Positions 1 through 47,600 of a stretch of DNA of 64,000 bases are shown in pieces (position 1 is the stretch's first letter; every line of letters begins with the position of its first letter). The notes beneath the pieces were generated by a model that saw only the letters and a program-made list of their open reading frames with translations, was not told the DNA's origin and searched no databases. This DNA comes from Anolis carolinensis (taxonomy: Eukaryota): contig NC_085842.1 of NCBI RefSeq assembly GCF_035594765.1, positions 226,249,747 through 226,313,746 on the forward strand. Direction: 5' to 3'. The translations under genes and the position numbers were made by a program.

Positions 1-902
1 TTGGACAGTAAAGCTGCATATAGGTTTCAATAAAATGTTAGGCTTTACTCTTACCAAAAAAATGGTTTTATAATGTAAATTCTGTGGAAATATGTTCCTT
101 CACACAGGAATACAGAACACGTCTATTAAACCCTTTAAAATATCTTCTCCTGAGACTTGAAACACTAGCACTCTAAAATATAGAGGCTAACTAGCCAACT
201 TAACAGTTCGAAAACATGAAGATGAGAGTAGATCAATAGGTACCGCTCCGGCGGGAAGATAACGGCGCTCCATGCAGTCATACCGGCCACATTGACCTAC
301 GGACAATTTTGGCTCTTCAAGTTAGAAGTGGAGATGAGCACCAACCCCCAGTGGACTTAATGTCAGGGGAAAACCTTTATACGGTAGTATTTAGTCCTTC
401 TTCCTTGAAGGCTTTTTAACTATATTCCTCAAAGAGGTATCACAGTAACTGTTCCCTTCCTTCCAATCCAAATCTCCATACCCTCTCCGCAAACACCAAA
501 CTCCTAACTTCAAAATGGCAGACTTCTAACTAACTGCACTCTCTTACATTCTCCCTGGCTCCGCCCATCTCTAGTTGCTAAGCAACTCCCTCCATTTTCA
601 TCAGCCAGTCAGACTGCACTTCCAGTTATGGAGCTGCCTGATCGCTCCTCCCCCTTGCTTTACTAAGCTTTTACAGGCAAGGCCTGAAATTACCTACACA
701 CCAGCCCTGTAAGGTAGGAAATCCGTTACACATTCCCTTTAGTGAGAACTGTATACAGCCTCCAAAGCACAACTGATAAGGACCAGGCCCAGCACCCATC
801 TAGATTATGCTGCTAAGGTTCCATCATCATATTTCTAAAGAAAAATCACAGTAGAACTCTAAAAAAAAAGAGCTTCATCATAGTCATGATTATATCTTAA
901 AG

Positions 903-1037
903 CAGTGGTTCTCAACCTGTGGGTCCCCAGATGTTTTGGCCTTCAACTCCCAGAAACACTAACAGCCGGTAAACTGGCTGAGATTTCTGGGAGTTGTAGG
1001 CCAAAACACCTGGGGACCCACAAGTTGAGAACCACTG
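903..1037. mobile_element. hAT-type MITE with 8-bp TSD TCTTAAAG
   Basis: TIR CAGTGGTTCTCAAC; TSD at 895-902 and 1038-1045. Related copies at about 3703-3837, 25240-25343, 30310-30444, 32262-32396, 38223-38355 and 63300-63378. Confidence 0.9.
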
Positions 1038-1246
1038 TCTTAAAGGAAAGTCAAAGGGGAGCCCTTGGGAGTCTCCCCGCTCAAAAAAGGGCTGGCACAC
1101 GTAGGAGAAGGAGTAGTGTGGAAAGAAATTCTTCTAATATTTGATAGCTTGAGTATACTCAGGAACTGAAGTTTTGTCTCTTTTGTAGAAAGTCTATACT
1201 TTTGTGCATTCTCTTATTTCATCATCATCATCATAATTATTATTAA

Positions 1247-5430: not shown

Positions 5431-8376
5431 CTATAGATTTTGTTTTGACGTGTCCAACTGACACGAATGTTCCTGAAGATGTTTCGAGAGGCGTAAGAGC
5501 AAGGACGCTTTGTGGGGTGGCGAGTGATGGAAAGATTCAGTTTCTCCATTGCTCAGCTCAAATGAAGCCTTGTTATTGTCTGCCTCAGAAGGTGCATGCC
5601 TGCCATCTGGATCTTGCAACTCTTCAACTCCATTTAGAGGCTCAATGCCACTTAGAGTTTCATCTCCTACATCGTCCCTTCTGGGAGTCACACTGTGTTC
5701 CTTCTCCACATTTTCAGCTTCATCAGCTTTGACGTCTTTGCCATCTCTGGCTTCCAAGAGTAGTGATGGGGACTCTGTCTCCCTTTCATTTGGAGGAAAT
5801 GGGCCCAAAGGACTCCAGGAGATGATACTGTCACATTCAGTATTATCCTGGATTTCACTAGCTTTATCACTGTCACTGTCAATAGTAATCACAACAGGCG
5901 AAGAAACAGGAGAGTAGCCCACCTGGTTTGCGTGCGGCTTCCTGTCCCATTTTCTTTTCTTCTTCTGACGCCTTGTCATGTCTGTGGCTGTCCCTTCATA
6001 AACAATCTCCACACTTGGGCTTCTTGACGTCTTTTTTGTCTTCTTTTGTGGGATGTCAGCTTCTGACTGACTGTTCAAGAGGTCAGCTGTCCTTTTGTAA
6101 GGATCCTGATGCTTTGGCACAAGATTTTCGAACACAAGTTCTTTTTTAGAAGGAGCAGCTTCCTCACTTCCTCTAGGCATACTCTCGAGGTGACGGGTCT
6201 TGTATTTCCTTTTGCCACTGGGTTTCTCTGATCGTGTTCTGTCTGATCCTCGAGAAGGAGTGTGAGACCGACTGCTGGACTGACTTCTTGATCTATCCCT
6301 TCCATAGTAGTAACTTGTGCTGCGACCTCTTGACATCTGATTATTGGTTCGCTCGTAAAAAGAGCGGACTCCATAGTCTGGGCTAGGAGAATGCCTGAAG
6401 TACTGATTCCGTCTGCTATGAGATAATTCATAATAATCTCGGGAGGCATTCCTCTCATATTTGCTGTGGTATTGGCCTCTGAAGTAATCATCACTATCTT
6501 GCCTTCTTGAACTTTTTCTGCATTCATTGCTACGAGATCTTGATCGACTCAGTTCTCGAGAGTAAATGCTTTCATCGCTCAGAGACAGAACTTTGCTTTT
6601 GCGAGAGAGGCTTTTGTCTCGGGTTTTGGACTTCTTTTTATCCTTTTTGTGCTTGCGTCTGCTGCTATCCCTCTTCTTCTTCCGTTTTTCCAGACTACGA
6701 TCCTTGTTCTTACTTTTGAAACTACGGTGCTCTCGGTCCAATTGCGGTGCGTAGGCTTCGGATTTCCTCCTTTTGGTAAAAGCGTAGCAGTCATCATAAT
6801 CATCCTCTCTCTCTCTAGGTGAATTTTGTAAACAAGTACTTCCACTGGCTTTATTTTTGTCATTTTCACTCCTTTTGGAATTTTGTTTTTTATTCGAGGA
6901 GGACACCTTCGCCTTATGACTGGCACTACCATCTCTGGACCCGAGAGAGAAGGGAGATGCATACCCACTGGCATCTGTATCACTAAAGCTCTGATACTGG
7001 ATGGGTTTCACTTTTTTCTGAACTTCTTCACATTTTCCTCCATCAACAACAGATTCCTCAGAGTCTGAAGACAGCTCCACAAGCTCAGGAGTTCTTTCAG
7101 CCAGCGGCTTCACATAGCCAACAATAACACAGTTTTCAAGGGAATCACAACTATCCTCGTTCCTCTCCACAGAAGGTGGTAACTGTGCTGGCAATACTGG
7201 TGCGTTGGTGGAGGGGTCTTCATCAGATGTTTCTGAAGTATCCAAAGTGGTGGACACAGTGGCACAAACCTGGTCAGAGCTTGAGTAAGATGGACCAGGG
7301 GTCTCATCATCCCAAGGCGCCTGGTCAGTACCGACAATAAAGGAATTCCGTTCAGCTTCCTGGGAATCGGTCTCATCTGGAGAGATGGTAATGACAGAGG
7401 ATTCTGATCGGCTTCCTTCCTCGTAAGATGGTGCAGGACAGTCATAATTAGCATGTTCGTCAAATGCGTCTATATTATAAGGGCACCTGGCAAAGTTAAT
7501 AAATTCATGCAAAAAGTGCTCTGTCCGATGAAGTAAAAAGGACTTTATCTGATCAGTGAATGCTGTGCTTTCTAGGTTGTACCGAGTGATGTTGCTCATT
7601 ATGATGTGCTGCACAACGGTGACAAGCGATCCATTAGCGCCAAACAAGACGGTAAGCTCGCGCTTCAGCCACGGAACTAGTCTATGAAGGCAGGCAGGAT
7701 TCCTGCGGAAAAATTCAGCGGATATGTCTCGGTAGCGCCCTCCATCTTCGATGCTTCGGACACGGGTGCCAGAGCGATACAGAGCTCTACGGAAGTTGAT
7801 GATTTCTTGCTCCTGAATTTGACGCATGGATCGGCCTTCCAAGTTCGCCTGTCGCCTGGAACGAAGTCTCCTGATTGTCTCAGTTATCTCTGTGTCTCTC
7901 TGTCCCGTTGACTGGCTTAACGGGCCTTCAAATAGGATTCCATTATCTGGAGGCGAGGCAGTTCGTCTAGTGTTGGGATTCCTCCGAGGGTAAGCCGAAG
8001 TGCGACGCTCCCTTGTTACAGTAGTTCGGTAACGGAATCTCCTCCCATCGGGGTTGCCAAAGGTATCTGTTTCTGCAGGCTTGACTGTATATACCTTATA
8101 GTCATTTTGTGATTTCATACTATGCACAACTGAGTGAAACGGTTGCTTGCATAAAGGGCATTCTGCTTTGTTCTTAGACCATTCCTGTATGCATCTGAAG
8201 CAGAATTTGTGCCAACACTGATCAAGGTAGGATATATTTTCAAATCTATCTAGGCATATAGGGCATTTAGAGTCTGGTGATGCATCTGATGATGACATTG
8301 TCTGGTGCAATTTCTTTGTGCCAGATTTAGACGAAAAGCTACCAGCCATCGAGTGGTTGGTCAGCGGTGTCAAATT
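5431..8376 (-). CDS. TOPORS: TOPORS E3 ubiquitin/SUMO ligase, large terminal coding exon (981 aa + stop)
   Basis: 980-aa ORF with RING finger (DASPDSKCPICLDRF...CWHKFCFRCIQEWSKNKAECPLCKQPF), HRLVPWLKRELTVLFG block, RS-rich region and SIM-like motifs (VELSSDSEE, VVITIDSDSD). Acceptor ttttcag|AAT at 8377-8378, phase 0. Confidence 0.98.
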   Translation of the reverse strand, partial: NLTPLTNHSMAGSFSSKSGTKKLHQTMSSSDASPDSKCPICLDRFENISYLDQCWHKFCFRCIQEWSKNKAECPLCKQPFHSVVHSMKSQNDYKVYTVKPAETDTFGNPDGRRFRYRTTVTRERRTSAYPRRNPNTRRTASPPDNGILFEGPLSQSTGQRDTEITETIRRLRSRRQANLEGRSMRQIQEQEIINFRRALYRSGTRVRSIEDGGRYRDISAEFFRRNPACLHRLVPWLKRELTVLFGANGSLVTVVQHIIMSNITRYNLESTAFTDQIKSFLLHRTEHFLHEFINFARCPYNIDAFDEHANYDCPAPSYEEGSRSESSVITISPDETDSQEAERNSFIVGTDQAPWDDETPGPSYSSSDQVCATVSTTLDTSETSDEDPSTNAPVLPAQLPPSVERNEDSCDSLENCVIVGYVKPLAERTPELVELSSDSEESVVDGGKCEEVQKKVKPIQYQSFSDTDASGYASPFSLGSRDGSASHKAKVSSSNKKQNSKRSENDKNKASGSTCLQNSPREREDDYDDCYAFTKRRKSEAYAPQLDREHRSFKSKNKDRSLEKRKKKRDSSRRKHKKDKKKSKTRDKSLSRKSKVLSLSDESIYSRELSRSRSRSNECRKSSRRQDSDDYFRGQYHSKYERNASRDYYELSHSRRNQYFRHSPSPDYGVRSFYERTNNQMSRGRSTSYYYGRDRSRSQSSSRSHTPSRGSDRTRSEKPSGKRKYKTRHLESMPRGSEEAAPSKKELVFENLVPKHQDPYKRTADLLNSQSEADIPQKKTKKTSRSPSVEIVYEGTATDMTRRQKKKRKWDRKPHANQVGYSPVSSPVVITIDSDSDKASEIQDNTECDSIISWSPLGPFPPNERETESPSLLLEARDGKDVKADEAENVEKEHSVTPRRDDVGDETLSGIEPLNGVEELQDPDGRHAPSEADNNKASFELSNGETESFHHSPPHKASLLLRLSKHLQEHSCQLDTSKQNL

Positions 8377-9039
8377 CTGAAAATGAAAACAGAGAGAAAA
8401 GTCATCATAATGTGTTTAACTCAATTTATGCCAATTAAAACTAGCGCTAAATTTGTTTTCAGTTGAAGTTAAACATGAGATTATTCAAATACCAACCAAT
8501 ATAATATTTTAGCAAAGTGAACAACTTTAGCATTGCTGGACTGTTTATCACATGAATCATAACTTGAGTTAACAGTGCAACAACATCTGAGGTGGCCAGA
8601 AAATATCCATTCCTATTCTATAACCTCAAGTAATGCATTTCTTGTTGCAATGGCCTCCTACCATTATGTTAATTTACATAATAACTAACAATATACTGTC
8701 AAGAAAGACGGATAAAGCAAAATCAAGGCCAAGACTTTTAACATGGCATATGTACAGCCAATCCTTCACATTGGCTGAGGTAAGGGCACAGAAAAATGCA
8801 AAAAATGCTTCTTTTTTTTTAACCAGCAAGAACATCTTGCTGGTAAAGGAAGAAGTTCTTGCCAGAATTTCCAAGTCTTCCAGCACAGCTCTATGATGAA
8901 CATTTCCATAAAAGTCGCACTAGAAATTTCTATAGAAAATATTGACATCAAATCCAAAAATAATCAAATCCATAAAAGCCAAACCCGCAAATGTGCAGGG
9001 CTGACTGTATATGCCAGCATCATAATAATAGTAATAACA

Positions 9040-9090
<51 letters not shown>

Positions 9091-11310
9091 TATATTCTGC
9101 CCTATCTCCCCAAGGGGACTCAGGATGGTTTACAACAAATATCAGCAAACATTCAGTGCTGTAAAGAAACAATGATGGAACAAAGACACGATGGAGCTGT
9201 GTCATTCCTGGCTGCCCCCTCTTCACTCTGAGGCTTCAAAGCGGTGGTTATGGTGGACCTCAGTTGTTCAAACTGGCTATGCAATGGACCATGAAGCTTG
9301 AGTTTATCTGTCTTGTGGTCTCTTTGAGCCACCTGACAGATAGTCTGAGGTTCAAAAAGCCTTCTCAATTGCATTAGATCCGAATGTTATAGGGAAGGTG
9401 GTTAGGTAAACAGCAAGGAAAGAGCTCCTGAGCCTCAGCATGAAGAAAGCTAAGTTTCTGGAACTGTCAAATCAACAATCTGTAAACCACACAAAGAGCC
9501 TTTGAGGCTGAAGAGTTGGGTATAGATATACTAGGTCCTTGTATCCATTAGGGGTTGGTTCCCCCCATGAATATCAAAATCTGTGGATGCTGACGTCCCC
9601 TTATGCACAATGGCACAATAAAAGACACAATAAAAGGCAAAATCAAGGTTTGCTCTTTGGATCTTTTTCAAATCAAAGACGGCTAAATTCCTAGATGCAG
9701 AACCCATGGATATGTAGGTCTGACTGTGCAAACACTGTGAATAATGAAATAAAATGAAAATATGCCTTGCAACTTTGCTGTACTTGGTTTCCGAAGGGAA
9801 TATGAGGTTGTGTGCCACAGGTATAGTCCCCAGTGACAAGCCGCTCACACATCTGAGCCCATTAAACTGCTCTTTGGGTGTATTGTTTTGTGGGCATTAA
9901 GATGAGTACAGTTGTGTTTCCAGCTGAAAAACATCCCCAAGCCTGTGGCGTTAAAGAGCAGACAGAAGCCACCCAACCCTTGTGATTGTTGGTCACAATT
10001 AATCTACGTCAGTGTTTCCCAAACTCTACTCGTCCAGGTATTTTGGAATGTGTCCTCCAGAATCCCTGAACACTGGCCACGGCAGCTGAGGCTTCTATCC
10101 TCACAGTTATTTTTTGGGGGGGTGGGGGTGGGTGGGTGGGTGTTGGGAATCAATTATCTAAATGGATATGGATCGGATCCAGCAAGGCTTCCCCTCCCAA
10201 CAGTGTCTCTAAGCCTATACAAAATACATGCCCTTTGGTGTGCCTCCAAAGCACAACTGCAAAGGACCAGACTCAGCGCCTATCTCGATTATGCTAACGT
10301 TCCATCATCATCGTCATCATTTCTAAAGGAAAAATTAAAGCAGAGTCCCCTGAAAGATCTGTTGTTGTCATCATATCTTAAAGGAAAGTTAAAGGAAAGC
10401 CCTAGAGAGTCTCCCCCCTTTAAAAAAGAGCTGGTACACGAAGGAGTAGTGTGGAAAGAAAATGCCCACAAATCTTGTGCTGCAAGAATTAGCCTTCTCC
10501 GATTCTTCTAATGTTTGATAGCTTGAATATACTCAGAAATTGAAGTTTTTTCTCTTTTGTAGGAAGCTTATACATTTTGTGAATTCCCTTTTTTCATCAT
10601 CATCATCATTATTATATATCAATATCATGATAATGATGAACGTGTGTATACCTTAAAGGAAAGTCAAAGAGAAGCCATAGAGATCTCCCCCCCTCAAAAA
10701 AGGCTGGCACCCTTTGACCCCTCCAAAGAAAATGTTTAAGTGCCTTGGCTGAATGCCATGGCACCTGGGGTTTGGAGTTCGGAGAGGCCCCACCTCTCTT
10801 TGGCAGGGAAGGCTAAAGACGTCGTGAAACTAGAAATCCCATGCTTCCATGGCAATGAGAAGTGGTCTCAAACTGCACTGAAACCACAGTGTAAAGCTGG
10901 ATCTACACTGCCATATAATCGGTTCAAGGCAGTGACTCAGCATTCTGAAACTGCATTACATGGCAGTGTCAATCCAGCCTAAAATAGACTTGCTTTTCCA
11001 GAAGGAATTGTGACAATACCTGCAAAGAGAGATGCCCACCAGCACACTACGCTCTTACAGTGCTATGATCCCACTATAACTGCCCAGGTAGCTTCCTAAG
11101 TTTCCCTCAGTGGACCTGAGGAACCCTTGAGGGAATAGTACTAGGAGAGTGTGCCTGATAAGAGTACTTAATCACATTCACACATGATTTGACTGCCAAG
11201 CCGACATGGTTCCCAAGACCACTTGGCCTTCCAGGGATTTGGCACTTCATCTCCCAGAAGCTCAAACGATCTGGGCCAGCTGCCGGGAATTCTGGGAGAT
11301 GAAGTCCAAA

Positions 11311-12743
11311 CAGTTGTCGAAGGCCTTCATGGCCAGAATCATTGGGTTGCTGTGAATTTTCCTAGCTGTATGGCCATGTTCCAGAAGCATTATCTCCTGA
11401 CGTTTCGTCCACATCTATGGCAAGCATTTTCAGAAGTTGTGAGGTCTGTTGCAAACTATGCAAGAGGGGTTTATATATCTGTGGAATGTCCAAGGTGGGA
11501 GGAAATTGGCCACCTTGATTAGCACTGAATGCCCTTGCAGCTTCAAAGCCTGGCTGCTTCCTGCCTGGGGGAATCCTTTGTTGGGAGGTGTTAGCTGGCC
11601 CTTGTTGATTTCTGTCTGGAATTTCCGTTTTCTGACAGTTGTTATTTATTTACTGTCCTGATTTTAAAGATTTTTAATACTACTGGTAGCCAGATTCTGT
11701 TCATTTTCATGGTTTACTCCTTTCTGTTTAAATTGTCCACATGCTTGTGGATTTCAATGGCTTCTCTCTGTAGTCTGATATGGTGGTTGTTAGAGTGGTC
11801 CAGCATTCCTGTGTTCTCAAATAATATGCTGTGTCCAGGTTGGTTCATCAAGTGCTCTGCTATCGTGTCAGCGAAGCTACTTGAGAGCATACTGCAAGTC
11901 GCTTCTGGTATGAGAGCACTGGCCATTTACAAAGACATTGCCCAGTGGACGCCTGGATGTATTACCACCGGGCTGGGATGGTATATGTCATGCGTGGACA
12001 TGAACGAAGCCTCCCACAAGGATGGTAAAGAACATCAAAAACATCTGGGCGTCCCCTGGGTAATGTCCTTGGCAGACAGCCAATTCTCTCACACTAGAAG
12101 CGACTTGCAGTTTCTCCAGTCACTCCTGACACATTTTTTTTAAAATCCTGCTGGAAGGTTTCCCTGATGTCCCCGCAAGCTAGAAATGACAGACGGGAGC
12201 TCACCTCGTCTCACGGATTCCAATCGGCATCCTTCAGGTCAGAAACCCAACCTTTAGGTCAGCAGTCCAGCGGCACAAGGGTTTAACCCATTGTGCTATT
12301 TTGCTATGGCTGACTTCTCAGGTTGAATTAGCCTGCAGTGCCTTTCATGTTCCTTGATTCATGATTCGAATCAAGGAACATGAAAGGCACTGAAGCCTAA
12401 TTCAGGGCAGTACATAAAGAACAACACTCAGAAGACTAGGAAATTCCAGACAAGAAAAAAAATCAGGGCTAGTTAAAACCTTTCAACAAAGGATTCCCCC
12501 AGGTAGGAAGCAGCCAGGCTTTGAAGCTGCAAGGCTACTCAATGCTAATCAAAGTGCCCAATTGCAACATTTACACTTGCCTCAAACAGACAAGAGTTCT
12601 TTCTCACACCCTGGACCTTCCACAGATATTTAAACCACTTGTCTACTTTCCAACAGAGCTCACAACCTCTGAGGATGCCTGCCATAGATGTGGGCGAAAC
12701 GTCTGGAGAGAATGCTTCTGGAACATGGCCATACACCCACCCA
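11311..12743. mobile_element. Penelope-like insertion (two inverted fragments plus nested SINE pieces)
   Basis: GIY-YIG-region remnant IAEHLMNQPGHSILFENT.MLDHSNNHHIRLQREAIEIHKH (minus strand, 11714-11860); plus-strand copy of the same 3' region at about 12410-12735; GAAGTCCAA at both 11301 and 12744. Confidence 0.8.
12666..12706 (+). ncRNA. Penelope-associated minimal hammerhead ribozyme motif
   Basis: CTGAGGA - stem II (GCCTGC/GTGGGC) - GAAAC GTC, with palindromic ACGT helix III; helix I imperfect. Confidence 0.5.
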
Positions 12744-12809
12744 GAAGTCCAAGCCACCCGCAAGGACCCAAATTGGACAAAAGAGGGCCTCGAGGGAAAC
12801 TCCGCCCAC

Positions 12810-13300
12810 CTATTTTTTTTTCCTTTCCCCAAAGGGAGGGGTGGGCGAGAATCCCTTTTGGGAGGCTCCGCAGGGATGGCTCAGAGGGGCGCGTGCCTCT
12901 CTCGGTCTCTCTCTCGCAGCTCGCACTCGCCCGGAGCCTGAGAGGACCCGGATGAGCCAACGGCTTAAGAATCCACTGCTCACCTGCTTCGAACGTTGGC
13001 GCCGGCGACCGTTGGAGCCGCCGGCTCGTCTCCGAAGCTCCCGCGAGTCACACATCGAGAAGGAGGAAAAGGAGAGCGGTTAGGCCTGGCACGTCCACCT
13101 CAGCCGGGGCAACAACTGCCGCTCACTTCCTTGGTCCTTGCCCTGACCCGGATGTACAACTCTACCAGGGGTCATGAGGACCGGCTTCCGGCTCGACAGG
13201 AAAACCAGAGGCGCCGACCAAACATCCTCACAGAGTTTGGCGAAACTTCCACGTCCGGATTGCAACAGGGCATGCAGGGGGTGGGGGGGGGGGTGGGTGG
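12810..13300. promoter_or_regulatory. CpG-rich TOPORS promoter/5' region with ETS-type motifs
   Basis: High CpG/GC content; CCGGATGT, CACTTCC and CCGGCTTCCGG between 13120 and 13260; G-run at about 13277-13301. Confidence 0.55.
12984..13055 (-). CDS. TOPORS: TOPORS probable first coding exon (MCDSRELRRRAGGSNGRRRQRSKQ)
   Basis: ATG at 13055 with an in-frame upstream TAA; 24 codons ending CAG|GTGAGC, phase 0, matching the phase-0 acceptor at 8376; CpG-rich setting. Joined protein is 1005 aa. Confidence 0.75.
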
Positions 13301-13340
13301 GAGTTGCAGTCCCAAGAATATTTCAAGCCTAATGATGACG

Positions 13341-13377
<37 letters not shown>

Positions 13378-13629
13378 AAGCCGTGGATTCCCTCAAGGCT
13401 TCCTCAGGTCACTGCTTGGGGCCACTGAGCGGTGAGCGGAGTTTCCCTCGAGGTCCTCGTTTACCCTGTTTGGGTCCTGCGTGTTCTTTGGACTTCATCT
13501 CCCAGAATTCCCGGCAGCTGGCCCAGATCGTTTGAGCTTCTGGGAGTTGAAGTGCCAAACCCCTGGAAGGCTAAAGGTTGGGAACCATGTTGCCTCGGCA
13601 GTCAAATCATGTGTGAATGTGATTAAGTA

Positions 13630-13935
13630 CAGTAGAGTCTCACTTATCCAACATAAACGGGCCGGCAGAGTGTTGGATAAGCGAATATGTTGGATAATAA
13701 GGAGGCATTAGGGGGGAGGCCTATTAAACATCAAATTAGGTTATGATTTTACAAATTAAGCACCAAAACATGTTATACAACAAATCTGACAGAAAAAGTA
13801 ATTCAATACGCAGTAATGCTATGTAGTAATTACTGTATTTACGAATTTAGCACCAAAATATCACGATGTATTGAAAACATTGACTACAAAACTGTGTTGG
13901 ATAATCCAGAATGTTGGATAAGTGAGACTCTACTG
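13630..13935. mobile_element. Tc1/mariner MITE with TA TSD
   Basis: TIR CAGTAGAGTCTCACTTATCCAA flanked by TA. Related copies at 17699-18014, 26348-26617 and 61686-62029. Confidence 0.9.
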
Positions 13936-14359
13936 TACTCTTATCAGGCACACTCCCCTATTACTATTCCCTCAAGAGTTCCTCAGGTCCACTGAGGGAA
14001 ACTTAGGAAGCTACCTGGCCAGTTAAAGTGGGATAATAGTGCTATAAGACTGTAATGTGGTGGGCATCTCCCTTAGCAGCCTTTGTCACAATTCCTTCTG
14101 GAAAAGGCTGGATCTACACTATCACATAATGCAGTTTCAGATTGCTGAGTCACTGCCTTGAACTGGATTATTTGACATTGTAGGTCCAACATTACACTGT
14201 GGATTCAGGGCAGTTTGACACCACTTCTCATTGCCATGGCTCAATGCTATGGAAGAATGGGATTTGTAGTTTCACAACATCTTTAAAAGTTTGTACGCTG
14301 GACTGGCCACGTTGTCCGAATGCCCAATCATAGTCTTACAAAACATTTACGGTATCCCC

Positions 14360-14885
14360 AATTGTCCACATGCTTGTGGATTTCAGTGGCTTCTCTGTGT
14401 AGTCTGACATGGGGGTTGTTAGGGCGGTCCAGCATTTCTGTGTTCTCAAATAATATGCTGTGTCCAGGTTGATGAACCAACCACTGAAAATGAACAAAAT
14501 CTGGCTACTAGTATTTTAAAAAAACCCTACAATCAGTACAGTAAATAAAGAACAGAAAACTGGGGAATTCCAGACATGAAACAATCAGGGCCAGTTAATC
14601 ACCTCCAAACAAAGAATGTCCCCAGGCAGGAAGCAGCTAGACCTTGAAGCTGAAAAGGCTATTCAATGCTAATCAAGGTAGTCAATTACAACATTCACAC
14701 TTTCCTCCAACAGACAAGAGTTCTTCCTCCCAACCTGGACTTTCCACAGATATAGAAACCTCACTTGCCTAGTTTCCTACAGACCCCACAACCTCAGAGG
14801 ATGCCTGCCATAGATGTGGGCGAAACGTCAGGAGAGAATGCTTCTGGAACATAGCCATACAGCCCGGAAAACTCACAGCAACCCA
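14360..14885. mobile_element. Penelope fragments (inverted junction near 14470)
   Basis: Same sequence family as 11311-12743 and 27410-28050. Confidence 0.75.
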
Positions 14886-15703
14886 CTTTGCGAGGCTCTT
14901 CATTTAAAAAAAACAAACGGAAAGGAGCCTCGTTTTCCTGGTGGTTTTGCTCCTACAACGTCCACATTAAAAACTACTGCACTTGCTTGCTTGGTTTTTC
15001 TTTTCCCACGATCAAGAAGCTGGGGAATGACGCATTGATCTCCCCATTGTTTGGAGATCAATGTCAGCATGCTTGAAATAAGTGCGCAGAGGACAGCAGC
15101 CAAAAAAGCTTCACTTACTTGAGAGTGAGTCGCTGGAGAGCCGCTCTCAATCTTTGGTTCTCCATTGCTTTGACTTTTTTACAAAAAGACTTCAACTCCC
15201 AGAAGCCTCAGCCAGCGTGGTAAGTGCTGCGGGATTCTGGGGAATGAAGTCCGGGGGAAAAAAATTGGAAGAGCACAGAGAGCCACTATAATAGGATCTC
15301 TGGAACCACCTTTTTAAACAAATGTGCATTCACTTGGGATGCGAATAAAACTAATCCTGACTGCAGGGCTGGGGGACGTCAATTCCCACAATCCCTTTCT
15401 TTTGGGCCTTGGTGCCGAGGCTTCTGGGAATTGAAGTCCTGCCTCTGCCAGAGTAGAGGGTTTTCTTCTATTTACAAATATGGATCTCCCTTTCCTGCCC
15501 ACTTTCCTTGCAAAGCTGAGAAAAGTTACCATTTTTGGACTCCTGACTCGCTTGAATCTACCCATAACTCCTGCTTGGTGGTGATTTCTGGGAGTTGCAG
15601 TCCAAAAAGGGACTTTTGTAAGCTCTGCCCTTTCCTGTCTGGCCTTCCTACCTCACTTCCCGAGGCCGCTGCACGATTGTAACTAGGAGCAACGCGGAGA
15701 GAA

Positions 15704-15748
15704 ATGATCCAGATGAACCGGACCATACAAGAATGGATATACTCGCTG
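15704..15748 (+). CDS. SMIM27: SMIM27 (TOPORS-AS1 micropeptide) coding exon 1, MIQMNRTIQEWIYSL
   Basis: ATG plus 15 codons, then CTG|GTAAGG donor; resembles recalled human SMIM27 MKPVSRRTLDWIYSV; divergent from TOPORS as in mammals. Confidence 0.88.
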
Positions 15749-18411
15749 GTAAGGAGGGGGACCTTGGGAAAGTCACACTCTCTCAGCCTCAGGAAGGCAG
15801 TGGCAAACCTCATCTGGACAAATCCTGCCCTGTGATCGGGTCAGAAAGGACACAGTAAAACTCACTTCCAGTCTGTATAAACGCCCTCTTGTGGAGGGAT
15901 GTCTGATTAAACTTAGTAGGACTTACTCTAGAGTAGATCAATTTTTAAATAACCACAAAGGAGCCATAGTGAGGTATCTAAAGACCTGGTATTATGGTAA
16001 AGCTTTCTTAACTTTGTGGCTGAGAACCAGCGTTGGAAGAAAATGCCCCTGTTTGAGGGAAGGGTTGTTGTTATTATTATTGTCATCATCATTAGGCTGG
16101 GGGATTCTGGGCCTTGCAATATGAAAAAGAGAGGAACTATCCCCCAGGACTATATCTACACTATAGAATGAATGCAGTTTGGCACCACTTTAACCGCAGT
16201 GGCTCCATGTGAGAGAATCCTGGGAGTTGTAGTATAACAGGGTCTTTAGCCTTCTCTGCTAAAAGCTGCCAAATTACAAATCCCAGCAGTCCATAGTATT
16301 ACACCATGGCAGTTAAAGTGGGATCAAGCTGTATTCATTCAACAGCAGAGATGCATCCCTGGACTGCTGTTTGAGTCTTTGTGCCTGCTGTCTGGGAGCT
16401 TTAATGCTGATGGCCTTACAATCTCTCAGGAGGTGCAAGTATTTCAGGATCCAGTTTTAGAAGATCCACCCTGAGAGCTTAAGACAAGAACATCAGCTGA
16501 GAAATTGTTTAGGAACCAACATCCACCAGAATGCTAGGGGAATCCACCCCTAACTGGAAAGGTAGGGGGTAAACTGGGTGTATTGTAGTGTATTCCACTG
16601 AGGTTTGGACATTTGAAGGCCAGAATAATTTTTAAAATGAATCTTCACTCCAAAGTGTGCATTTAACTGGTGCACCTAGAGGCACATTTGCTCCCCCCCC
16701 CCAACTTACAGCATCTGCATATTCCAATTCTGTAGTCTGGGTAGGCCAAGTGCAAACTCTGAGACAACAGTTTCAATGAAGTTTAGCCATCGTGATTTCC
16801 CGTAAAAAACAACAACAAATTCATTCATTTTTAATTCTGTTTTAGTCTTGACCTTTTGAATGTTTTTACTGTATTGTGATTTTATGTGTAAACAGCCTTA
16901 TTCCCCCGTTTTAGAATGACGGGGTTTAAAGATCAGTACAGGGATAGCTCAGGCCCCTTCCACACTGCTGTATAAAATCCACATTGAACTGGATTATATG
17001 GCAGTGTGGACTCAGATAGTCTGGCTCAAAGCAGATATTGTGGATTATCGGTATTGATATTCTGGTTTCTATAGCTGTGTTGAAGGGATCTGATAACAAA
17101 GCCTCTGATAAAAAAGCTCCTTTTTACAGTCTTTTTACAGGATTCCAGCTACTTCTTGCCCTGTGTTTATCTGGAAAGTGTTTTTCTGTTTGTTTTTCAC
17201 AACATTTATATTGGGAATATGAACAAGGGATGCTAGAGAAAAAGTGTGGCATTGCAGAATTGTCTGCAGTAAACAATGCAATAAAGCTTAACCTGAGAAA
17301 AAATGGGGCTGTGTTTTAGTCAATGCTATTGCAGCTCCATATGAGCTTATGTACAACAGGAGAGGTAAACAGGCACCTACAGAATCACTTATGAGATTCT
17401 GTGAGGAGCAAAACAGAAGAAGGCAAATGGGGGAAGCAGATTAGCCTGTATCACTTCAGCTCTACTGGTATGTTGAAAAATTACAGATCTATAGTTTTTG
17501 ACACCAAAACGGAAATAAGAAAAGTTGTTCTTGAAAGGAAAAAAATATATTACCCCAAGATGTATCTCAGAAGAAGCTTTCAAGTATCCTCAGATTCAAA
17601 ATGTTTATTTATGCAAGACTCACTTGACCTGGTTGTTTCATTTTATATGTATAGGATGATAGTTTTGAATGAAAAGTCTACTGAAACATGTCAAACTGCA
17701 ATAGAGTCTCACTTATCCAAGCCTCACTTATCCAAGCGTCTGGAAGCCATTTTTGTAGTCAATGTTTTCAATATATTGTGATATTTTGGTGCTAAATTCA
17801 TAAATACAGTAATTACAACATAACATTACTGCATATTGAATTACTTTTTCTGTCAAATTTGTTGTATAACATGATGTTTTGGTGCGTAATTTGTAAAATC
17901 ATAGCCTAATTTGATGTTTAATAGGCTTTTCCTTAATCCCTCCTTATTATCCAAGATATTCGCTTATCCAAGCTTCTGCTGGCTCGTTTAGCTTGGATAA
18001 GTGAGACTCTACTGTACTTCTTTTCTGTGATGTAGAAACCTATCCGTGTTCTTTCCATGTTATTTCTGCCTCTGGTGCCAAAGTTTCTTAACAAAAAATG
18101 AAGTCCATGAAAACATCTTCTTTAGTAACTGAGATGTACCTGCATTTGCAGTAGGCATTTTCTATGCTCTATTGCCCAGAGGTTCTTGAGAAAAACTATG
18201 GCCCCTTCTACACTGCCATAACAAATTCAGCTTATCTGCTTTGTATTGGATTATATGAGTGTAGACTACCATAATCAAGTTCAAAGCAGATGTGAATTAT
18301 CTGTGTTGATAACCTAGATTATGTGGCAGTGTAGAAGGGGACTGTTATCCTTCTTAAGAGACACTGGCAAAACATCTGTCTGTGAAATGTCATGTTATCT
18401 TCTTTTAACAG

Positions 18412-18522
18412 ATTCTTCTCACTATTGTGTTGCTTTCATGGGGATATGTTATTTACGCAACACGAATAGCAGCCAAGTGGCATCTGAAGGAACTCTACCC
18501 CCTGCAAGCACAAGATCTTTGA
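18412..18522 (+). CDS. SMIM27: SMIM27 coding exon 2, ILLTIVLLSWGYVIYATRIAAKWHLKELYPLQAQDL*
   Basis: Acceptor tcttttaacag|, phase 0; hydrophobic TM segment aligning to recalled human LLLAIVLISWGCIIYASMVSARRQLRKKYP. Total 51 aa. Confidence 0.9.
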   Translation: MLLTIVLLSWGYVIYATRIAAKWHLKELYPLQAQDL

Positions 18523-41922: not shown

Positions 41923-44605
41923 CATAGAATCATAGAATCATAGAATAGTAGAGTTGGAAGAGACCACATGGGCCATCCAGTCCAACCCCCTGCTAAGAAG
42001 CAGGAAATCGCATTCAAAGCACCCCCGACAGATGGCCATCCAGCCTCTGCTTAAAAGCCTCCAAAGAAGGAGCCTCCACCACGGCCCCGGGGAGAGAGTT
42101 CCACTGTCGAACAGCCCTCACAGTTAGGAAGTTCTTCCTGATGTTCAGGTGGAATCTCCTTTCCTGTAGTTTGAAGCCATTGTTCCGTGTCCTAGTCTGC
42201 AGGGCAGCAGAAAACAAGCTTGCTCCCTCCTCCCTTTGACTTCCCTTCACGTATTTGTACATGGCTATCATGTCTCCTCTCAGCCTTCTCTTCTGCAGGC
42301 TAAACATGCCCAGCTCTTTAAGCCGCTCCTCATAGGGCTTGTTCTCCAGACCCTTAATCATTTTAGTCGCCCTCCTCTGGACGCTTTCCAGCTTGTCAAC
42401 ATCTCCCTTCAACTGTGGTGCCCAAAATTGGACACAGTATTCCAGGTGTGGTCTGACCAAGGCAGAATAGAGGGGGAGCATAACTTCCCTGGATCTAGAC
42501 GCTATTCCCCTATTGATGCAGGCCAGAATCCCATTGGCTTTTTTACCAGCCGCATCACATTGTTGGCTCATGTTTAACTTGTTGTCCACAAGGACTCCAA
42601 GGTCTTTTTCGCACACACTGCTGTCAAGCCAGGCGTCCCCCATTCTGTATCTTTGATTTCCATTTTTTCTGCCGAAGTGAAGTATCTTGCATTTGTCCCT
42701 GTTGAACTTCATTTTGTTAGTTTCGGCCCATCTCTCTAGTCTGTCAAGATCGTTTTGAATTCTGTTCCTGTCTTCTGGAGTGTTAGCTATCCCTCCCAGT
42801 TTTGTGTCGTCTGCAAACTTGATGATCGTGCCTTCTAACCCTTCGTCTAAGTCGTTAATAAAGATGTTGAACAGAACTGGGCCCAGGACGGAGCCCTGCG
42901 GCACTCCACTTGTCACTTCTTTCCATGATGAAGACGACGCATTGGTGAGCACCCTTTGGGTTCGTTCGCTTAGCCAATTACAGATCCACCTAACCGTAGT
43001 TTTGTCTAGCCCACATTTTACTAGTTTGTTTGCCAGAAGGTCGTGGGGGACTTTGTCGAAGGCCTTACTGAAATCCAGGTACGCTACATCCACGGCATTC
43101 CCTGTATCAACCCAACTCGTAACTCTATCGAAAAAAGAGATCAGATTATTCTGGCATGACTTGTTTTTGGTAAATCCGTGTTGACTATTAGCAATGACCG
43201 CATTTGTTTCTAAGTGTTCGCAGACCACTTCCTTAATGATCTTTTCCAGAATTTTGCCTGGTATTGATGTGAGGCTGACCGGACGGTAATTGTTTGTGTC
43301 GTTCTTTTTTCCCTTCTTGAAGATAGGGACCACATTCGCCCTCCTCCAATCTGCTGGGACTTCTCCCGTTCTCCAAGAACTCTCGAAGATAATTGCCAGT
43401 GGTTCTGAAATAACTTCCGCTAGTTCCTTCAGTACTCTTGGATGTAGCTGGTCTGGCCCTGGGGACTTGAATTCGTTTAGAGTGGCCAGGTGTTCCTGGA
43501 CAACTTGTTTCCCTATTTGGGGTTGGATTTCCCCCAATCCTTCGTCCATTCCATGTTACTGAGGTTGAAGATGGCTTTCTTTTTGTGAGAAGACCGAGGC
43601 AAATAAGGCATTAAGTAGTTCTGCCTTTTCCCTGTCCCGTCGCCATCACCCCATCTTCTCCTTGCAATGGCCCTATCGCCTCCTTTTTCTTCCTTTTTCT
43701 ACCAACGTAAGCAAAAAAGCCTTTTTTGTTGTTTTTTATGTCCCTGGCAAGCCTGAGCTCATTTTGTGCTTTAGCCTTGCGAACCTTTTCCCTACAGGTG
43801 TTGGCTATACGTTTGAATTCTTCTTTGGTGATTTCTCCCCTTTTCCACTTCTTGTGCATGTCACTTTTGAGCTTTAGCTCAGTTAGAAGTTCTTTGGACA
43901 TCCATTCTGGCTTCTTTGCACTTGTCTTATTTTTCTTCTTTGTTGGCACTGTTTGCATTTGCGCCTTGAGTGTTTCACTTTTGAAAAACTCCCATCCATC
44001 CTTAACTCCCTTGTTTTTTTATATCGGCGTCCATGGAATGCCGCTTAGTAATTCCTTCATTTTTTGGAAGTCAGCTCTCTTAAAGTCCAGAAAGCGTGTT
44101 TGACTTGTCTTAGTTTCAGCATTAATTTGTATTGCAAACTGCAGGAGCACATGGTCACTTGCCCCTAAGGATCCAACCACTTCAACTGTATTGATCAGGT
44201 CTTCCACATTTGTTAAGATTAGATCAAGAGTTGCTGATCCCCTTGTTGCCTCTTCTACCTTCTGGACCATAAAATTATCTGCAAGGCAAGTGAGGAATTT
44301 GTTGGACTTTGTACTCTTGGCTGAGTTTGTTTTCCAGCAGATATCGGGATAATTGAAATCGCCCATGACTACTATATCTCTTCTTTGTGCCTGTTTGGTC
44401 AGCTGTTGACAGAAGGCTTCATCAAGTCCTTCATTCTGACTCGGAGGTCTGTAGTAGACACCCACGACAAGATCTTTTTGAGTCCCGGTTCCCTTGATTC
44501 TTATCCAGATGCTTTCAAGCTGGTTTCCCGGATTACAGTCTTGCATTTCTTCTGCAACGTAACTGTTTTTGACATATAAAGCTACCCCCCCCCTCCTCTC
44601 CCCTT
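41923..44605 (-). mobile_element. CR1 LINE, 5'-truncated, near-complete ORF2 (APE + RT), in SUN intron 1
   Basis: RT motifs ([18 protein letters not shown]) at 42014-43549; APE motifs (GVYYRPP, MGDFNYPDICW, SDH) at 44019-44546; (TTCTATGA)n 3' tail. Nonsense codons at about 43556 and 44019 and a frameshift near 43640. Confidence 0.96.
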
Positions 44606-47600
44606 TGTTCTATTTCTGTGAAAGAGGCTATAGCCCTCAATGGTTAAATTCCAGTGATGGGAGTCATCCCACCAGGTTTCACTGCACTATAGTCCATATA
44701 GTTCACTGCACTATAGTCCATACCAAAAGAATCATGCAATTCAAATGCTTTGCAAGCAAAGGTCTAAGGACTTTATTATACCTGGCTGTTGAGTCATGAC
44801 AACTGTGATGTTAAAGCAAATGGAAACATATCACTATTGGAACAATCATGTTCACACCCCACTGCAATTGCACTATACTGCAGCTTTGGTGATGTGAATT
44901 CTCATGACCAATCTTCCTACCTACGATCCCCTAATAGGCACATCTGCACTGCGATTTTTCTATTTTGCTGCAACTATACAGTTTTGATAATCCTGAAAAA
45001 TCTTCATCTGCTTTGCAATATTGGGATTGCAGCAGAAGAAAGCTATTGAAATAGTGACAGAAGAATAGCAGTAGATTTTTCTCTTCAATGAAAAGAGATG
45101 ATCCAATCATGATTCAAGAGTAAGGAAACTGAAACAGATATGAAGTTGTGTGATAAACCCAAGCAAAGGTGTAATTGCACTTTATTATCAACCTTGTGTG
45201 ATAAAGACCTAAGATACCTCCTGCCATAGCTCGAAAAATGTATACCAAGTCTGAGTCATGATCCTACATGCCCAAGATTCCCAGTCACCAAGTAAAATTA
45301 GTTAATTATATTAATCAGACTATTTAAAAAAACAACCCAGTCAAAATATTGCCACCCAAAGAACTTGAAAAAAATTACCCATCTGGACCATAATTCCCCA
45401 AATCCTTCAGTGGTCATGCTAAATCTGTAGTCCAAAAAGATAGATTTTCTGGGGTCTGAGTGCTGTATTGTGAATCCAGAATGGTATAGGATGCAACAAA
45501 CACAGTTAAAGTGAAATCATAGTGTTGTTATTAAGAAGTGCAAAAAAGTTCATAGTAGCAAATACACCAGCCAATGTAGCATAGTACATTAGCAAAATTT
45601 CTGTACAAATTCAGATCTTCATTTCGCAAAGACAGGAAGCTAGATGTTTTTATGAAACCTTCAATAAAGGGAGACATAGACACTAAAAATGCATCCACTC
45701 ATCTTAAAGGGCATCAATTGGTTATCACAAAACTATAGAATTTGAACAGAAAGTATCCAAATCTTGGAGGAGTAAGTATTGACATTCATCACTATCAGAA
45801 CTTTTAAAGTGGGTATCCAACACACTGAATCTATTTTGGGATAGGTTGCAGCCCTTGGAGATCTTCTTTAAAGTTCACATTTTAATCCAAAACAAACTGT
45901 GATGCAGGGCACATCTACACTGTAGAATGAATGTAGTCTGACACGACTTGAACTGCCACGGATCAATGCTATGATAGATTTATTTATTTATTGGTTAGTC
46001 CTCTGACCATATCAATGGTTCAATGCTATGAGATCCTGGGGTTTGGAATTTGGTGAGGCACCAGGACTATTTGCCAGAGAAGGCTAAAGATCTTATAAAA
46101 CTATAGCTCTCATGATTCCATAGCACTGAGATAAAGTGCTGTCAAATTGCATTCATTCTAGTGTGTAGATGAACCTGTAGATGCCAATTGCTGTAATTGT
46201 AATGACTTTAGTGATCAGCTAGTGCATCTCCTCGCTCAGTGTAGACTGAAGTTGCAGCATCATTGAACAATGCCAATCCATCATCTGTCAAATATCAGCA
46301 ATGATTAAAAGTTGTCCATTTTCTAAAAAACCTCACACACCCAGAAAGTTTCTGTGTTAATGCTGCAATGCGAATAGCCCCCAAAGCTACCAAGCAGAAG
46401 ATGCTTTACAGCTAGTATGTCCTTTGCTCCATTTTTTAAAGGCAGAAGAAGCAATGGGAAAACACAAATGTCACGTGGACACTTCGCATAAATGCCATGC
46501 ATTAGGTAAGGGGATCCACAATCAAAGGCATATCTGGAAGGACCACTATTGTTAAAAGGTGTGAGATGCATACTTAACACATTCTTCTGAGATGCTGTGG
46601 ATGACCTTGACAACAAGGTGCTAGAGCTGGTCTCTCTTGCAATGACCTCTCTGATGAATGCTGTTTGGCATCTGTCTGGTGAATGTCCTGTAAAGAAATG
46701 TCATCTCATTATCAGCCAGGCATCACCAGCATCCAAGACTGAATAATTCTGTCTGAAAGTTAAACATACCTTATCAGAGGAATGGGTTGATTCTACTTCT
46801 GTTTCCATCTGACTTCTTGTTCTTTTCTCTCTTTATTGTTATAAATTGAATGTTTGTGATCCAAAGTATCTGGATTTGGCCATCAACTTAGGAGATAGGG
46901 CTCATCTACATCAGGCAAGTCAGCCTGATATAACTCTGCCTTAGAACAACCCTGGATCCAACACAAATGTGCTTAATCTGGGGCCACTGTTTAAATAGTC
47001 ACCTACTGGGCTGTCACCTTCCATGTGTCTCCATCGCCACCACTCTTAGCTGGTCATGGAGTTGCGTCTGAGTAAGAGGCCACTGAGGTTGCCTCTGCTG
47101 TTGTCCAAAAGGAGCACTTGTGTAACCAGAAAGGATGGTGTGGATCTCCCCTCCTTTTCACTCAGATATCAGCAGAGGCAATTGCAGTGGCTAGGTGCTT
47201 GGATGGAGGTACATGACTGACAAAGAGCAGTAGCGGGGCAACATTATACAAGCCATTCCCTTTCCTTGTTGTAATCCCAGTGAAGGGTGAGAGTGATGGC
47301 AATGGTTTGCATTTGGATTGCAGATCATTCTGAATCAGAGCCTCACGTAAACTCTGAAGGATCCTCCAAATTGCCTAAAGCATGAGAAAATCAGAGTATA
47401 ACCAAAGCCTGGAAGATGGAATGCATTGTGAAGACTGCCAACAGTCCATTCACAGTGAGTACTGCGGGCTGGGGATTGGTCTATGTAGATAAACCAATTT
47501 GAAGAGAAACGGCACAATAATACAACTCATATGTTTCGTGGGAGATGATGTAAAGGACTGACTGCAAAAGCCAGTGTGGTTTGATCGCTGAACTGTGACT

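What the first reader, a model, noticed from the sequence alone, without database searches (positions are those of the whole stretch)
10814..14285. TOPORS first coding exon sits in the spacer of a local inverted duplication
Seen: 10814-11310 plus 12744-12810 is the reverse complement of 13431-14285. The match includes non-TE-looking sequence (GGTAGCTTCCTAAGTTTCCCTCAGTGGACCTGAGGAA and CCTCGAGGGAAACTCCGC.CACC) and runs across junctions between repeats. The spacer (12811-13430, about 620 bp) contains the CpG-rich region and the 72-nt exon. The segment 11230-11310 differs from its partner at only about 2 of 80 positions, while the outer parts are visibly more diverged. Inference: arm-to-arm gene conversion. 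Recombination between the arms could invert the exon and promoter. If transcription starts further upstream, near SMIM27, the pre-mRNA would fold the exon into a stem-loop (exon skipping, A-to-I editing or circularisation).
Basis: partly seen in the sequence, partly recalled or inferred. Interest (0 to 1): 0.7.

Follow-up and report, generated by a model that had tools for sequence, protein, structure and literature searches.

The report
Old mirror copy around TOPORS promoter
In this lizard a 550-base stretch is present as two mirror-image copies on either side of the TOPORS gene's CpG-rich start and first coding exon; it is likely an old copying scar, probably patched here and there by DNA copying between the two copies, and nothing found shows that it flips the promoter or controls splicing.

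Summary
The inverted duplication is real, local and present in other animals' sequencing runs. Without two later transposon insertions (a 1.43-kb Penelope-like element in the left arm, a 310-bp MITE in the right) the arms are about 550 bp and 89% identical. Their 200-bp core has no other copy in the genome search, and 0 of 60 random 10-kb stretches hold such a pair. The right arm is likely the copy: it cuts a repeat that is whole on the left. Two tracts (3/113 and 2/83 differences) sit amid about 14% divergence. Arm-to-arm conversion is the likeliest cause, but the clustering test is borderline (p 0.007-0.06; 0.09-0.22 after merging adjacent changes). An invertible promoter is unlikely today: the longest perfect match is 60 bp and both arms are split. 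Skipping by a stem-loop is unshown: the exon looks like a first exon, isoforms lacking it are annotated across squamates, and transposon inverted pairs lie in 28 of 60 random stretches. One RNA run splices TOPORS to 94 unidentified letters, which keeps that door slightly open. Verdict: new member of a known kind, low interest.

The parts
5431..8376 (-). TOPORS large coding exon (RING domain, 981 codons); acceptor at 8376
   Evidence: ORF; 100% identical to P0001, named TOPORS by its source; an RNA contig ends exactly at 8376 and goes on spliced
10735..10880 (.). Dispersed repeat A, whole on the left; the left arm starts inside it at 10814
   Evidence: 39 of 39 other scored genomic copies cross 10814; the right-arm copy stops at about 14285
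10814..11309 (+). Left arm, outer and middle part, in TOPORS intron; repeat-free core about 11000-11200
11084..11197 (+). High-identity tract 1 (3 substitutions in 113 columns), spans the MITE insertion site of the other arm
11228..11309 (+). High-identity tract 2 (2 in 83; 60-bp perfect run 11251-11310), a copy of a dispersed palindromic repeat
11310..12744 (.). Penelope-like fold-back insertion with nested repeats that splits the left arm; 9-bp duplication GAAGTCCAA at its ends; hammerhead core at 12669
   Evidence: borders; 7077 candidates; hammerhead core, laid out as described for PAc in PMC11167929 (passages)
12745..12810 (+). Left arm, inner part (10 substitutions in 57 columns)
12811..13430 (.). 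Spacer: single-copy CpG island (GC 0.57, CpG o/e 0.77), likely promoter
   Evidence: promoter role inferred; long contigs of runs X7, X10, X19 lie here (weak hint)
12984..13055 (-). Coding part of the TOPORS first coding exon (24 codons), donor CAG|GTGAGC
   Evidence: begins P0001; same N-terminus in geckos, snakes, lacertids, skinks, varanids
13080..13175 (-). Upstream in-frame ATG: a 31-codon upstream ORF in the window; a 40-residue N-terminal extension on the 13082 G allele
   Evidence: translation and P0122; G in 6 of 7 runs that cover the site
13387..13428 (-). Third, partial copy of the arm core (11100-11136) abutting the inner end of the right arm
13431..13627 (-). Right arm, inner and middle part
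13628..13937 (.). MITE with terminal inverted repeats and TA duplication, inserted in the right arm; 9 of 303 sites differ from the majority of 29 close copies
13938..14285 (-). Right arm, outer part; ends inside repeat A
14290..14885 (.). Second Penelope-like fragment pair abutting the right arm; its plus part is an inverted match to 11343-11714
15116..15789 (.). Second candidate promoter region with the first coding exon of the SMIM27-like gene (plus strand, donor 15749) and a minus-strand donor-like site CAA|GTAAGT at 15118
   Evidence: splice 15748 to 18412 in RNA runs X15 and X24, long contigs in X10 and X19; donor scan; the name SMIM27 is recalled, Pfam gave no family

Best explanation
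A 550-bp segment that now lies in the TOPORS intron next to the CpG island exists as two inverted copies around the island and the first coding exon; it likely arose by one local copying error, was probably patched afterwards by short arm-to-arm conversions, and likely has no function. Shown: the two arms, their uniqueness, the two later insertions, two near-identical tracts. Inferred: the right arm is the copy, made by a replication template switch (copy through the spacer, switch strand, copy the intron segment backwards, return), with the short third copy at 13387-13428 as a leftover of an extra switch; the event is about as old as the Penelope-like insertions (about 7% change per copy); later conversion or template-switch tracts of 80-220 bp reset 11084-11197 and 11228-11309, last at about the time of the MITE insertion (3%). 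If the island fires both ways, each nascent RNA would carry one arm in the same sense, so the arms would not pair.
For: Unique local pair present in independent runs. Polarity: repeat A is crossed at 10814 by 15 of 24 local hits and 39 of 39 other scored genomic copies, but at 14285 by 0 of 65 hits, and its missing half does not reappear in 14286-15700 (score 20, shuffled maximum 29). Order of events: target-site duplications at both inserts. Conversion: 11 of 224 columns differ in 11084-11309 against 45 of 314 outside (Fisher p 0.0003, segments chosen after seeing the data); run-length permutation p 0.0065-0.011; the left insert differs from the majority of 24 copies at 55 of 866 sites (6.4%), which predicts about 13-14% between arms, as seen outside the tracts, and at 14% a 224-column window with 11 or fewer changes occurs in 0.0003 of simulations; in tract 2 the arms share 8 changes from the repeat majority and have 2 private ones, and all 4 CpG columns are kept. 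Known processes: template switches create and homogenise inverted repeats (PMC5453318, PMC8604942, passages).
Against: Clustering is not significant once adjacent differences are merged into single events (p 0.09-0.22); best-interval test p 0.06 and longest-run p 0.024-0.055. The dating is soft: the coding-end pieces of the Penelope-like inserts differ from the majority at only 4 of 143 and 4 of 112 sites, and at a 10.4% null the scan-corrected p is 0.03-0.18. The right arm's outer end abuts another insertion, so a later deletion could also explain the cut repeat. No outgroup DNA could be read. No junction microhomology was seen.
Confidence: 0.6

Rival explanations
1. Same old duplication, but no conversion: the alike tracts come from chance, clustered multi-base mutations elsewhere, or local constraint (for example transcription-factor sites; the palindromic repeat resembles the ZNF143/THAP11 motif, recalled, untested).
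For: Clustering p 0.09-0.22 after merging adjacent changes; younger age estimates from parts of the inserts.
Against: The 60-bp perfect run includes the loop of the palindrome, not only motif-like ends; two separate tracts; 8 shared against 2 private changes.
Confidence: 0.2
2. The arms act in RNA: a TOPORS transcript that starts upstream of 14285 (second promoter at 15.1-15.8 kb, or read-through from NDUFB6) carries both arms, which would pair, loop out the island and coding exon, and favour the shorter 972-residue form; pairing would select for the alike tracts.
Against: No joint from upstream was displayed (15 of 101 joints shown). Forms lacking the exon are annotated in Podarcis, Varanus, Hemicordylus and chimpanzee too, lineages far older than a 7%-old duplication. 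By eye no pyrimidine-tract-plus-YAG acceptor lies in front of the exon, so an alternative first exon would bypass it without any stem. X15 covers the right arm at depth 15 but 8429-11110 at 0-3, and its right-arm contig has 1 other letter in 413. Transposon inverted pairs of similar strength flank the same exon (-514) and occur in 28 of 60 random stretches.
Confidence: 0.08
3. The arms make the promoter and exon an invertible, polymorphic cassette by non-allelic homologous recombination.
For: Inverted repeats 620 bp apart; close repeats can recombine through matches under 50 bp (PMC2583991, passages); template switching can invert short spacers.
Against: Longest perfect tracts 60, 41 and 34 bp against 134-232 bp and 300-500 bp thresholds cited in PMC2583991; both arms are split by insertions; a flip would likely cut TOPORS from its conserved start, and Topors loss harms mice. 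Contigs cannot phase across the perfect tracts, so absence was not shown.
Confidence: 0.04
4. The copy was made from RNA: a Penelope-like reverse transcriptase jumped onto nascent TOPORS intron RNA and wrote it back upstream.
For: The right arm abuts a Penelope-like fragment pair of similar age (27 of 396 sites from majority); read on the minus strand it has the sense of a cDNA of the intron; both inner ends fall at donor-like G|GT sites.
Against: Those donor-like sites match only 6 of 9 consensus positions; the third partial copy at the inner junction fits serial DNA template switches better; no target-site duplication around arm plus element was seen.
Confidence: 0.06
5. Both arms are copies of one dispersed composite repeat, or the structure is an assembly error.
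For: About 60% of each arm is made of short dispersed repeats.
Against: The core and all junctions occur only here; arm-specific letters are read in independent runs; 10% divergence and arm-specific insertions are not what a mis-assembly gives.
Confidence: 0.02

Closest known systems
Template-switch inverted repeats (four-point model type 1-4-3-2 / 3-2-1-4; FoSTeS/MMBIR at larger scale), PMC5453318, passages seen
   Same: A nearby segment is copied backwards, leaving an inverted repeat around an unflipped spacer.
   Different: The paper's events span tens of bases; this copy is about 550 bp with a 620-bp spacer and an extra short copy, nearer to FoSTeS-type serial switches; the ancestral state was not seen.
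Homogenisation of inverted-repeat arms (yeast short repeats, PMC8604942, passages; primate X palindromes, PMC8981503, start of abstract only)
   Same: Arms more alike in places than their age predicts.
   Different: Palindrome arms stay above 99% identical; here 89% overall with two short tracts, and the statistics are borderline.
Human inversions mediated by inverted repeats, PMC3961182, passages seen
   Same: Inverted repeats flank a gene start; some human cases move first exons.
   Different: The paper defines highly identical repeats as 1 kb or more and 97% or more; one likely breakpoint region is 782 bp at 99.9%. Here the perfect match is 60 bp and no inverted allele is known.
Exon skipping, circular RNA and A-to-I editing driven by inverted intronic repeats such as Alu pairs (recalled, no call)
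   Same: Complementary stretches on both sides of an exon could pair in a precursor RNA.
   Different: Needs an internal exon and one transcript through both arms; neither is shown, and the exon looks like a first exon.

Membership tests
Local inverted duplication by template switch | Two copies of a locally unique segment in inverted orientation, close together | tested here: met
Local inverted duplication by template switch | Spacer keeps its ancestral orientation | tested here: met
   Exon is in the same sense as the large exon and encodes the N-terminus conserved in squamates
Local inverted duplication by template switch | Single-copy ancestral state in an outgroup, with switch points | not testable with these tools
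   No other lizard genome is held; relatives look-up empty
Local inverted duplication by template switch | Microhomology or templated insertion at the junctions | tested here: inconclusive
   No microhomology outside the match; a 24-40 bp third copy at the inner junction could be a templated insertion
Short-range four-point events (PMC5453318) | Copied fragment of at most tens of bases | tested here: not met
   About 550 bp
Conversion-homogenised inverted repeat | Tracts more alike than the age of the duplication predicts | tested here: inconclusive
   p 0.0003 at 14% expected divergence, 0.03 at 10.4%; not significant after merging adjacent changes
Conversion-homogenised inverted repeat | Paralogues closer than orthologues across species, or shared polymorphism | not testable with these tools
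   Proxy only: 8 shared, 2 private changes against the repeat majority; variant tables were swamped by transposon contigs
Conversion-homogenised palindrome (primate X type) | Arm identity above 99% | tested here: not met
   56 substitutions and 8 indels in 538 columns
Inverted-repeat-mediated polymorphic inversion | Long uninterrupted identity (130-500 bp) | tested here: not met
   60 bp at most (thresholds)
Inverted-repeat-mediated polymorphic inversion | Both orientations segregate | not testable with these tools
   Only contigs were served; none spans the structure
Stem-loop-driven skipping, back-splicing or editing | Both arms in one precursor RNA | tested here: inconclusive
   Unstranded contigs; right arm covered, left side hardly; 94 unidentified upstream letters
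Stem-loop-driven skipping, back-splicing or editing | Exon has a splice acceptor | tested here: inconclusive
   No clear acceptor by eye; not scored with a trained model
Stem-loop-driven skipping, back-splicing or editing | Clustered A-to-G changes in the arms | tested here: inconclusive
   None among the 15 differences listed; contigs drop rare variants
Dispersed composite repeat | Whole unit found at many loci | tested here: not met

The most novel reading that the evidence does not exclude
A neutral copying scar was recruited as an RNA switch: transcripts from a second, upstream promoter carry both arms, which pair over 500 bases and loop out the CpG island and the conserved first coding exon, so promoter choice plus a conversion-maintained stem sets the ratio of long to short TOPORS in this lizard.
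Probability: 0.08. Interest if true: 0.6.

Novelty: new member of a known kind. Interest (0 to 1): 0.25.

Why it matters
As a scar it is a tidy, datable example of a sub-kilobase inverted duplication at a CpG-island promoter: two nested transposons give a clock, so an anole species alignment could measure how short and how interrupted repeats can be and still convert. It would matter more only if an upstream-started transcript pairs the arms or an inverted allele exists, since TOPORS loss harms mice. I found no paper on this locus: (3 papers hold both TOPORS and Anolis; listings only, none on this by title or abstract start), for the general pattern; the library lacks most subscription journals.

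Tried and rejected
Run search: no RNA holder listed on record; no raw or long reads were served, so inversion, strand and start sites were not testable. at 85% likeness was swamped by transposon contigs; only 40 of 305 difference rows and 32 pieces were shown, so shared-polymorphism tests failed. I laid 8 of the 24 listed runs. X24 has no cover of 12899-13345, which proves nothing. Depth contrasts in X7, X10 and X19 (higher on the spacer and at 15.1-15.8 kb) are a hint only: contig depth cannot rank parts of a gene and holders were found with the spacer. Placing X15's 94 letters: the leftover depth of one bin fits 15119-15212 exactly (26.0 against 21.76 + 4.24), but another X15 contig already holds those letters, which contig assembly should forbid; a candidate exon at 11059-11154 fails for the same reason; left open. 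A donor-like GT at 13125 was dropped: 7 of 7 covering runs read the other letter. My first label 'Sauria SINE' for the left insert was dropped for Penelope-like. I first misread NDUFB6 as plus strand; it is minus. Rfam: 15 matches, all far below gathering scores, hairpin look-alikes. The direct match 677-1246 with 10182-10622 is partly a dispersed repeat and was not pursued. No supplements were opened.
Full report
Observation. The inverted match is real. BLAST of 9001-16500 against the window gives three blocks, and alignment shows one original unit split twice: the left arm 10814-11309 plus 12745-12810 by a 1.43-kb insertion with a 9-bp duplication at its ends, the right arm 13431-13627 plus 13938-14285 by a 310-bp TA-flanked MITE. 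Without inserts the alignment has 538 columns, 56 substitutions and 8 indels. About 60% of an arm is short dispersed repeats, but the core 11030-11230, the inner block and the spacer match only this locus (lower bounds by the tool's own note). In 60 evenly spaced 10-kb stretches of G000, 28 hold some inverted match of 80 bp or more, 0 hold one with 100 repeat-free bases on both arms; the window does. Contigs from 8 laid runs (8 of 24 listed) read both arms and the arm-spacer junctions with 0-2 other letters. None spans the whole, so they exclude an artefact but say nothing on orientation polymorphism.

Genes. The large minus-strand exon 8376-5431 is identical to P0001, which its source names TOPORS of Anolis carolinensis. 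P0001 begins with the 24 codons at 13055-12984, and this N-terminus is conserved in geckos, snakes, skinks, lacertids and varanids, so the spacer has its ancestral orientation. The spacer is a single-copy CpG island. An in-frame ATG at 13175 shows that 72 nt is only the coding part: an older gene model (P0122) starts there. A small plus-strand gene, SMIM27 by recall (no Pfam hit), is spliced 15748 to 18412 in runs X15 and X24; NDUFB6 starts near 27 kb on the minus strand. Mouse Topors has three exons, the last starting at residue 69 (PMC2873312, passages), so the lizard exon is the positional match of mammalian exon 2.

History. Repeat A runs through the left arm's outer end (15 of 24 local hits, 39 of 39 other scored genomic copies) but stops at the right arm's end (0 of 65 hits cross it), and its other half is not found further on. 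The right arm is therefore likely the copy, although the Penelope-like fragment that abuts it could have deleted the rest. A 24-40 bp third copy of the core sits at the inner junction, as serial template switches would leave (inference; template switches making inverted repeats: PMC5453318, passages). The left insert has the hammerhead core and start-codon layout described for the anole Penelope-like element PAc (PMC11167929, passages). It differs from the majority of 24 close copies at 55 of 866 sites, the MITE at 9 of 303. Both entered after the duplication, which is thus about 6-7% old per copy; the arms differ by 45 of 314 columns outside the alike zone, in line with that.

Conversion. Differences by block: 35/257, 3/113, 6/28, 2/83, 10/57. 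For: permutation p 0.0065-0.011 on run lengths; at 14% expected divergence a zone like 11084-11309 (11/224) arises in 0.0003 of scans; 8 shared against 2 private changes in tract 2. Against: longest-run p 0.024-0.055, best-interval p 0.06, p 0.09-0.22 when adjacent changes are merged, p 0.03-0.18 at a 10.4% null, and parts of the inserts look younger (4/143, 4/112). I put conversion or template-switch homogenisation (PMC8604942, passages) at about two in three, given the duplication.

Inversion. The perfect tracts are 60, 41 and 34 bp. PMC2583991 (passages) cites a 20-fold fall in recombination from 232 to 134 bp and 300-500 bp for human meiosis, but also events through matches under 50 bp between close repeats; PMC3961182 (passages) treats repeats of 1 kb and 97% as highly identical. 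Rare flips cannot be excluded, but they would likely separate TOPORS from its conserved start. Not testable here.

RNA. X15 is RNA (spliced joint). It has contigs at 13003 to at least 13247, 13913-14325 and 14859-15748 at depth 15-20, and depth 0-3 over 8429-11110. The simplest reading, inferred and unstranded, is a plus-strand transcript from the island through the right arm towards SMIM27, mirror to TOPORS through the left arm; such RNAs hold the arm in the same sense and cannot pair. X10 and X19 hint at a second promoter at 15.1-15.8 kb, with a good minus-strand donor at 15118. If an upstream exon is used, both arms are in one precursor and would pair strongly. Even then the arms need not cause anything: forms without this exon are annotated in A. 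sagrei, Podarcis, Varanus, Hemicordylus and chimpanzee, no clear acceptor precedes the exon (by eye), an inverted transposon pair of like strength flanks the same exon, and no editing cluster was listed (weak).

Context. Earlier AI notes of this scan describe similar layouts in other genomes; they are leads, not support, but suggest the pattern recurs. No note exists for this place or its relatives.

Verdict. A real, uncommon but familiar kind of structure: an old local inverted duplication around a promoter, probably patchily converted, with no function shown. Interest 0.25; new member of a known kind.

Noticed in passing
window 13082 (minus-strand codon 13082-13080) and ATG at 13175: A segregating stop: the window and run X4 have TAA, closing a 31-codon upstream ORF 25 bases before the TOPORS ATG; 6 of 7 covering runs and the older model P0122 have CAA, which opens a 40-residue in-frame extension. 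Could alter translation.
   Followed up: partly
window 8376, run X15 record 9: TOPORS contig spliced to 94 unidentified upstream letters, apparently not the annotated first coding exon.
   Followed up: partly
window 15116-15789: Second promoter-like site beside the SMIM27-like exon, 2 kb from the CpG island, with a minus-strand donor CAA|GTAAGT at 15118; candidate alternative first exon of TOPORS.
   Followed up: partly
window 12324-12404: 81-nt near-perfect palindrome at the centre of the fold-back Penelope-like insert; Rfam gives only sub-threshold microRNA look-alikes.
   Followed up: partly
window 677-1246 and 10182-10622; 10373-10437 and 10648-10710: Older direct matches on both sides of the TOPORS large exon; part is a dispersed repeat, but 10242-10344 matched only 758-855 among 41 scored matches, so a second, older local duplication is possible.
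   Followed up: partly
window 12810 (minus) and 13431 (plus): Both inner arm ends fall on weak splice-donor-like G|GT sites (6 of 9 consensus positions).
   Followed up: partly
window 42014-44609: Nearly whole CR1-type retrotransposon reading frames (endonuclease and reverse transcriptase, label recalled) on the minus strand, in pieces.
   Followed up: no
P0081: A rodent TOPORS model carries the NDUFB6 Pfam domain, suggesting NDUFB6-TOPORS read-through or a fused gene model.
   Followed up: no
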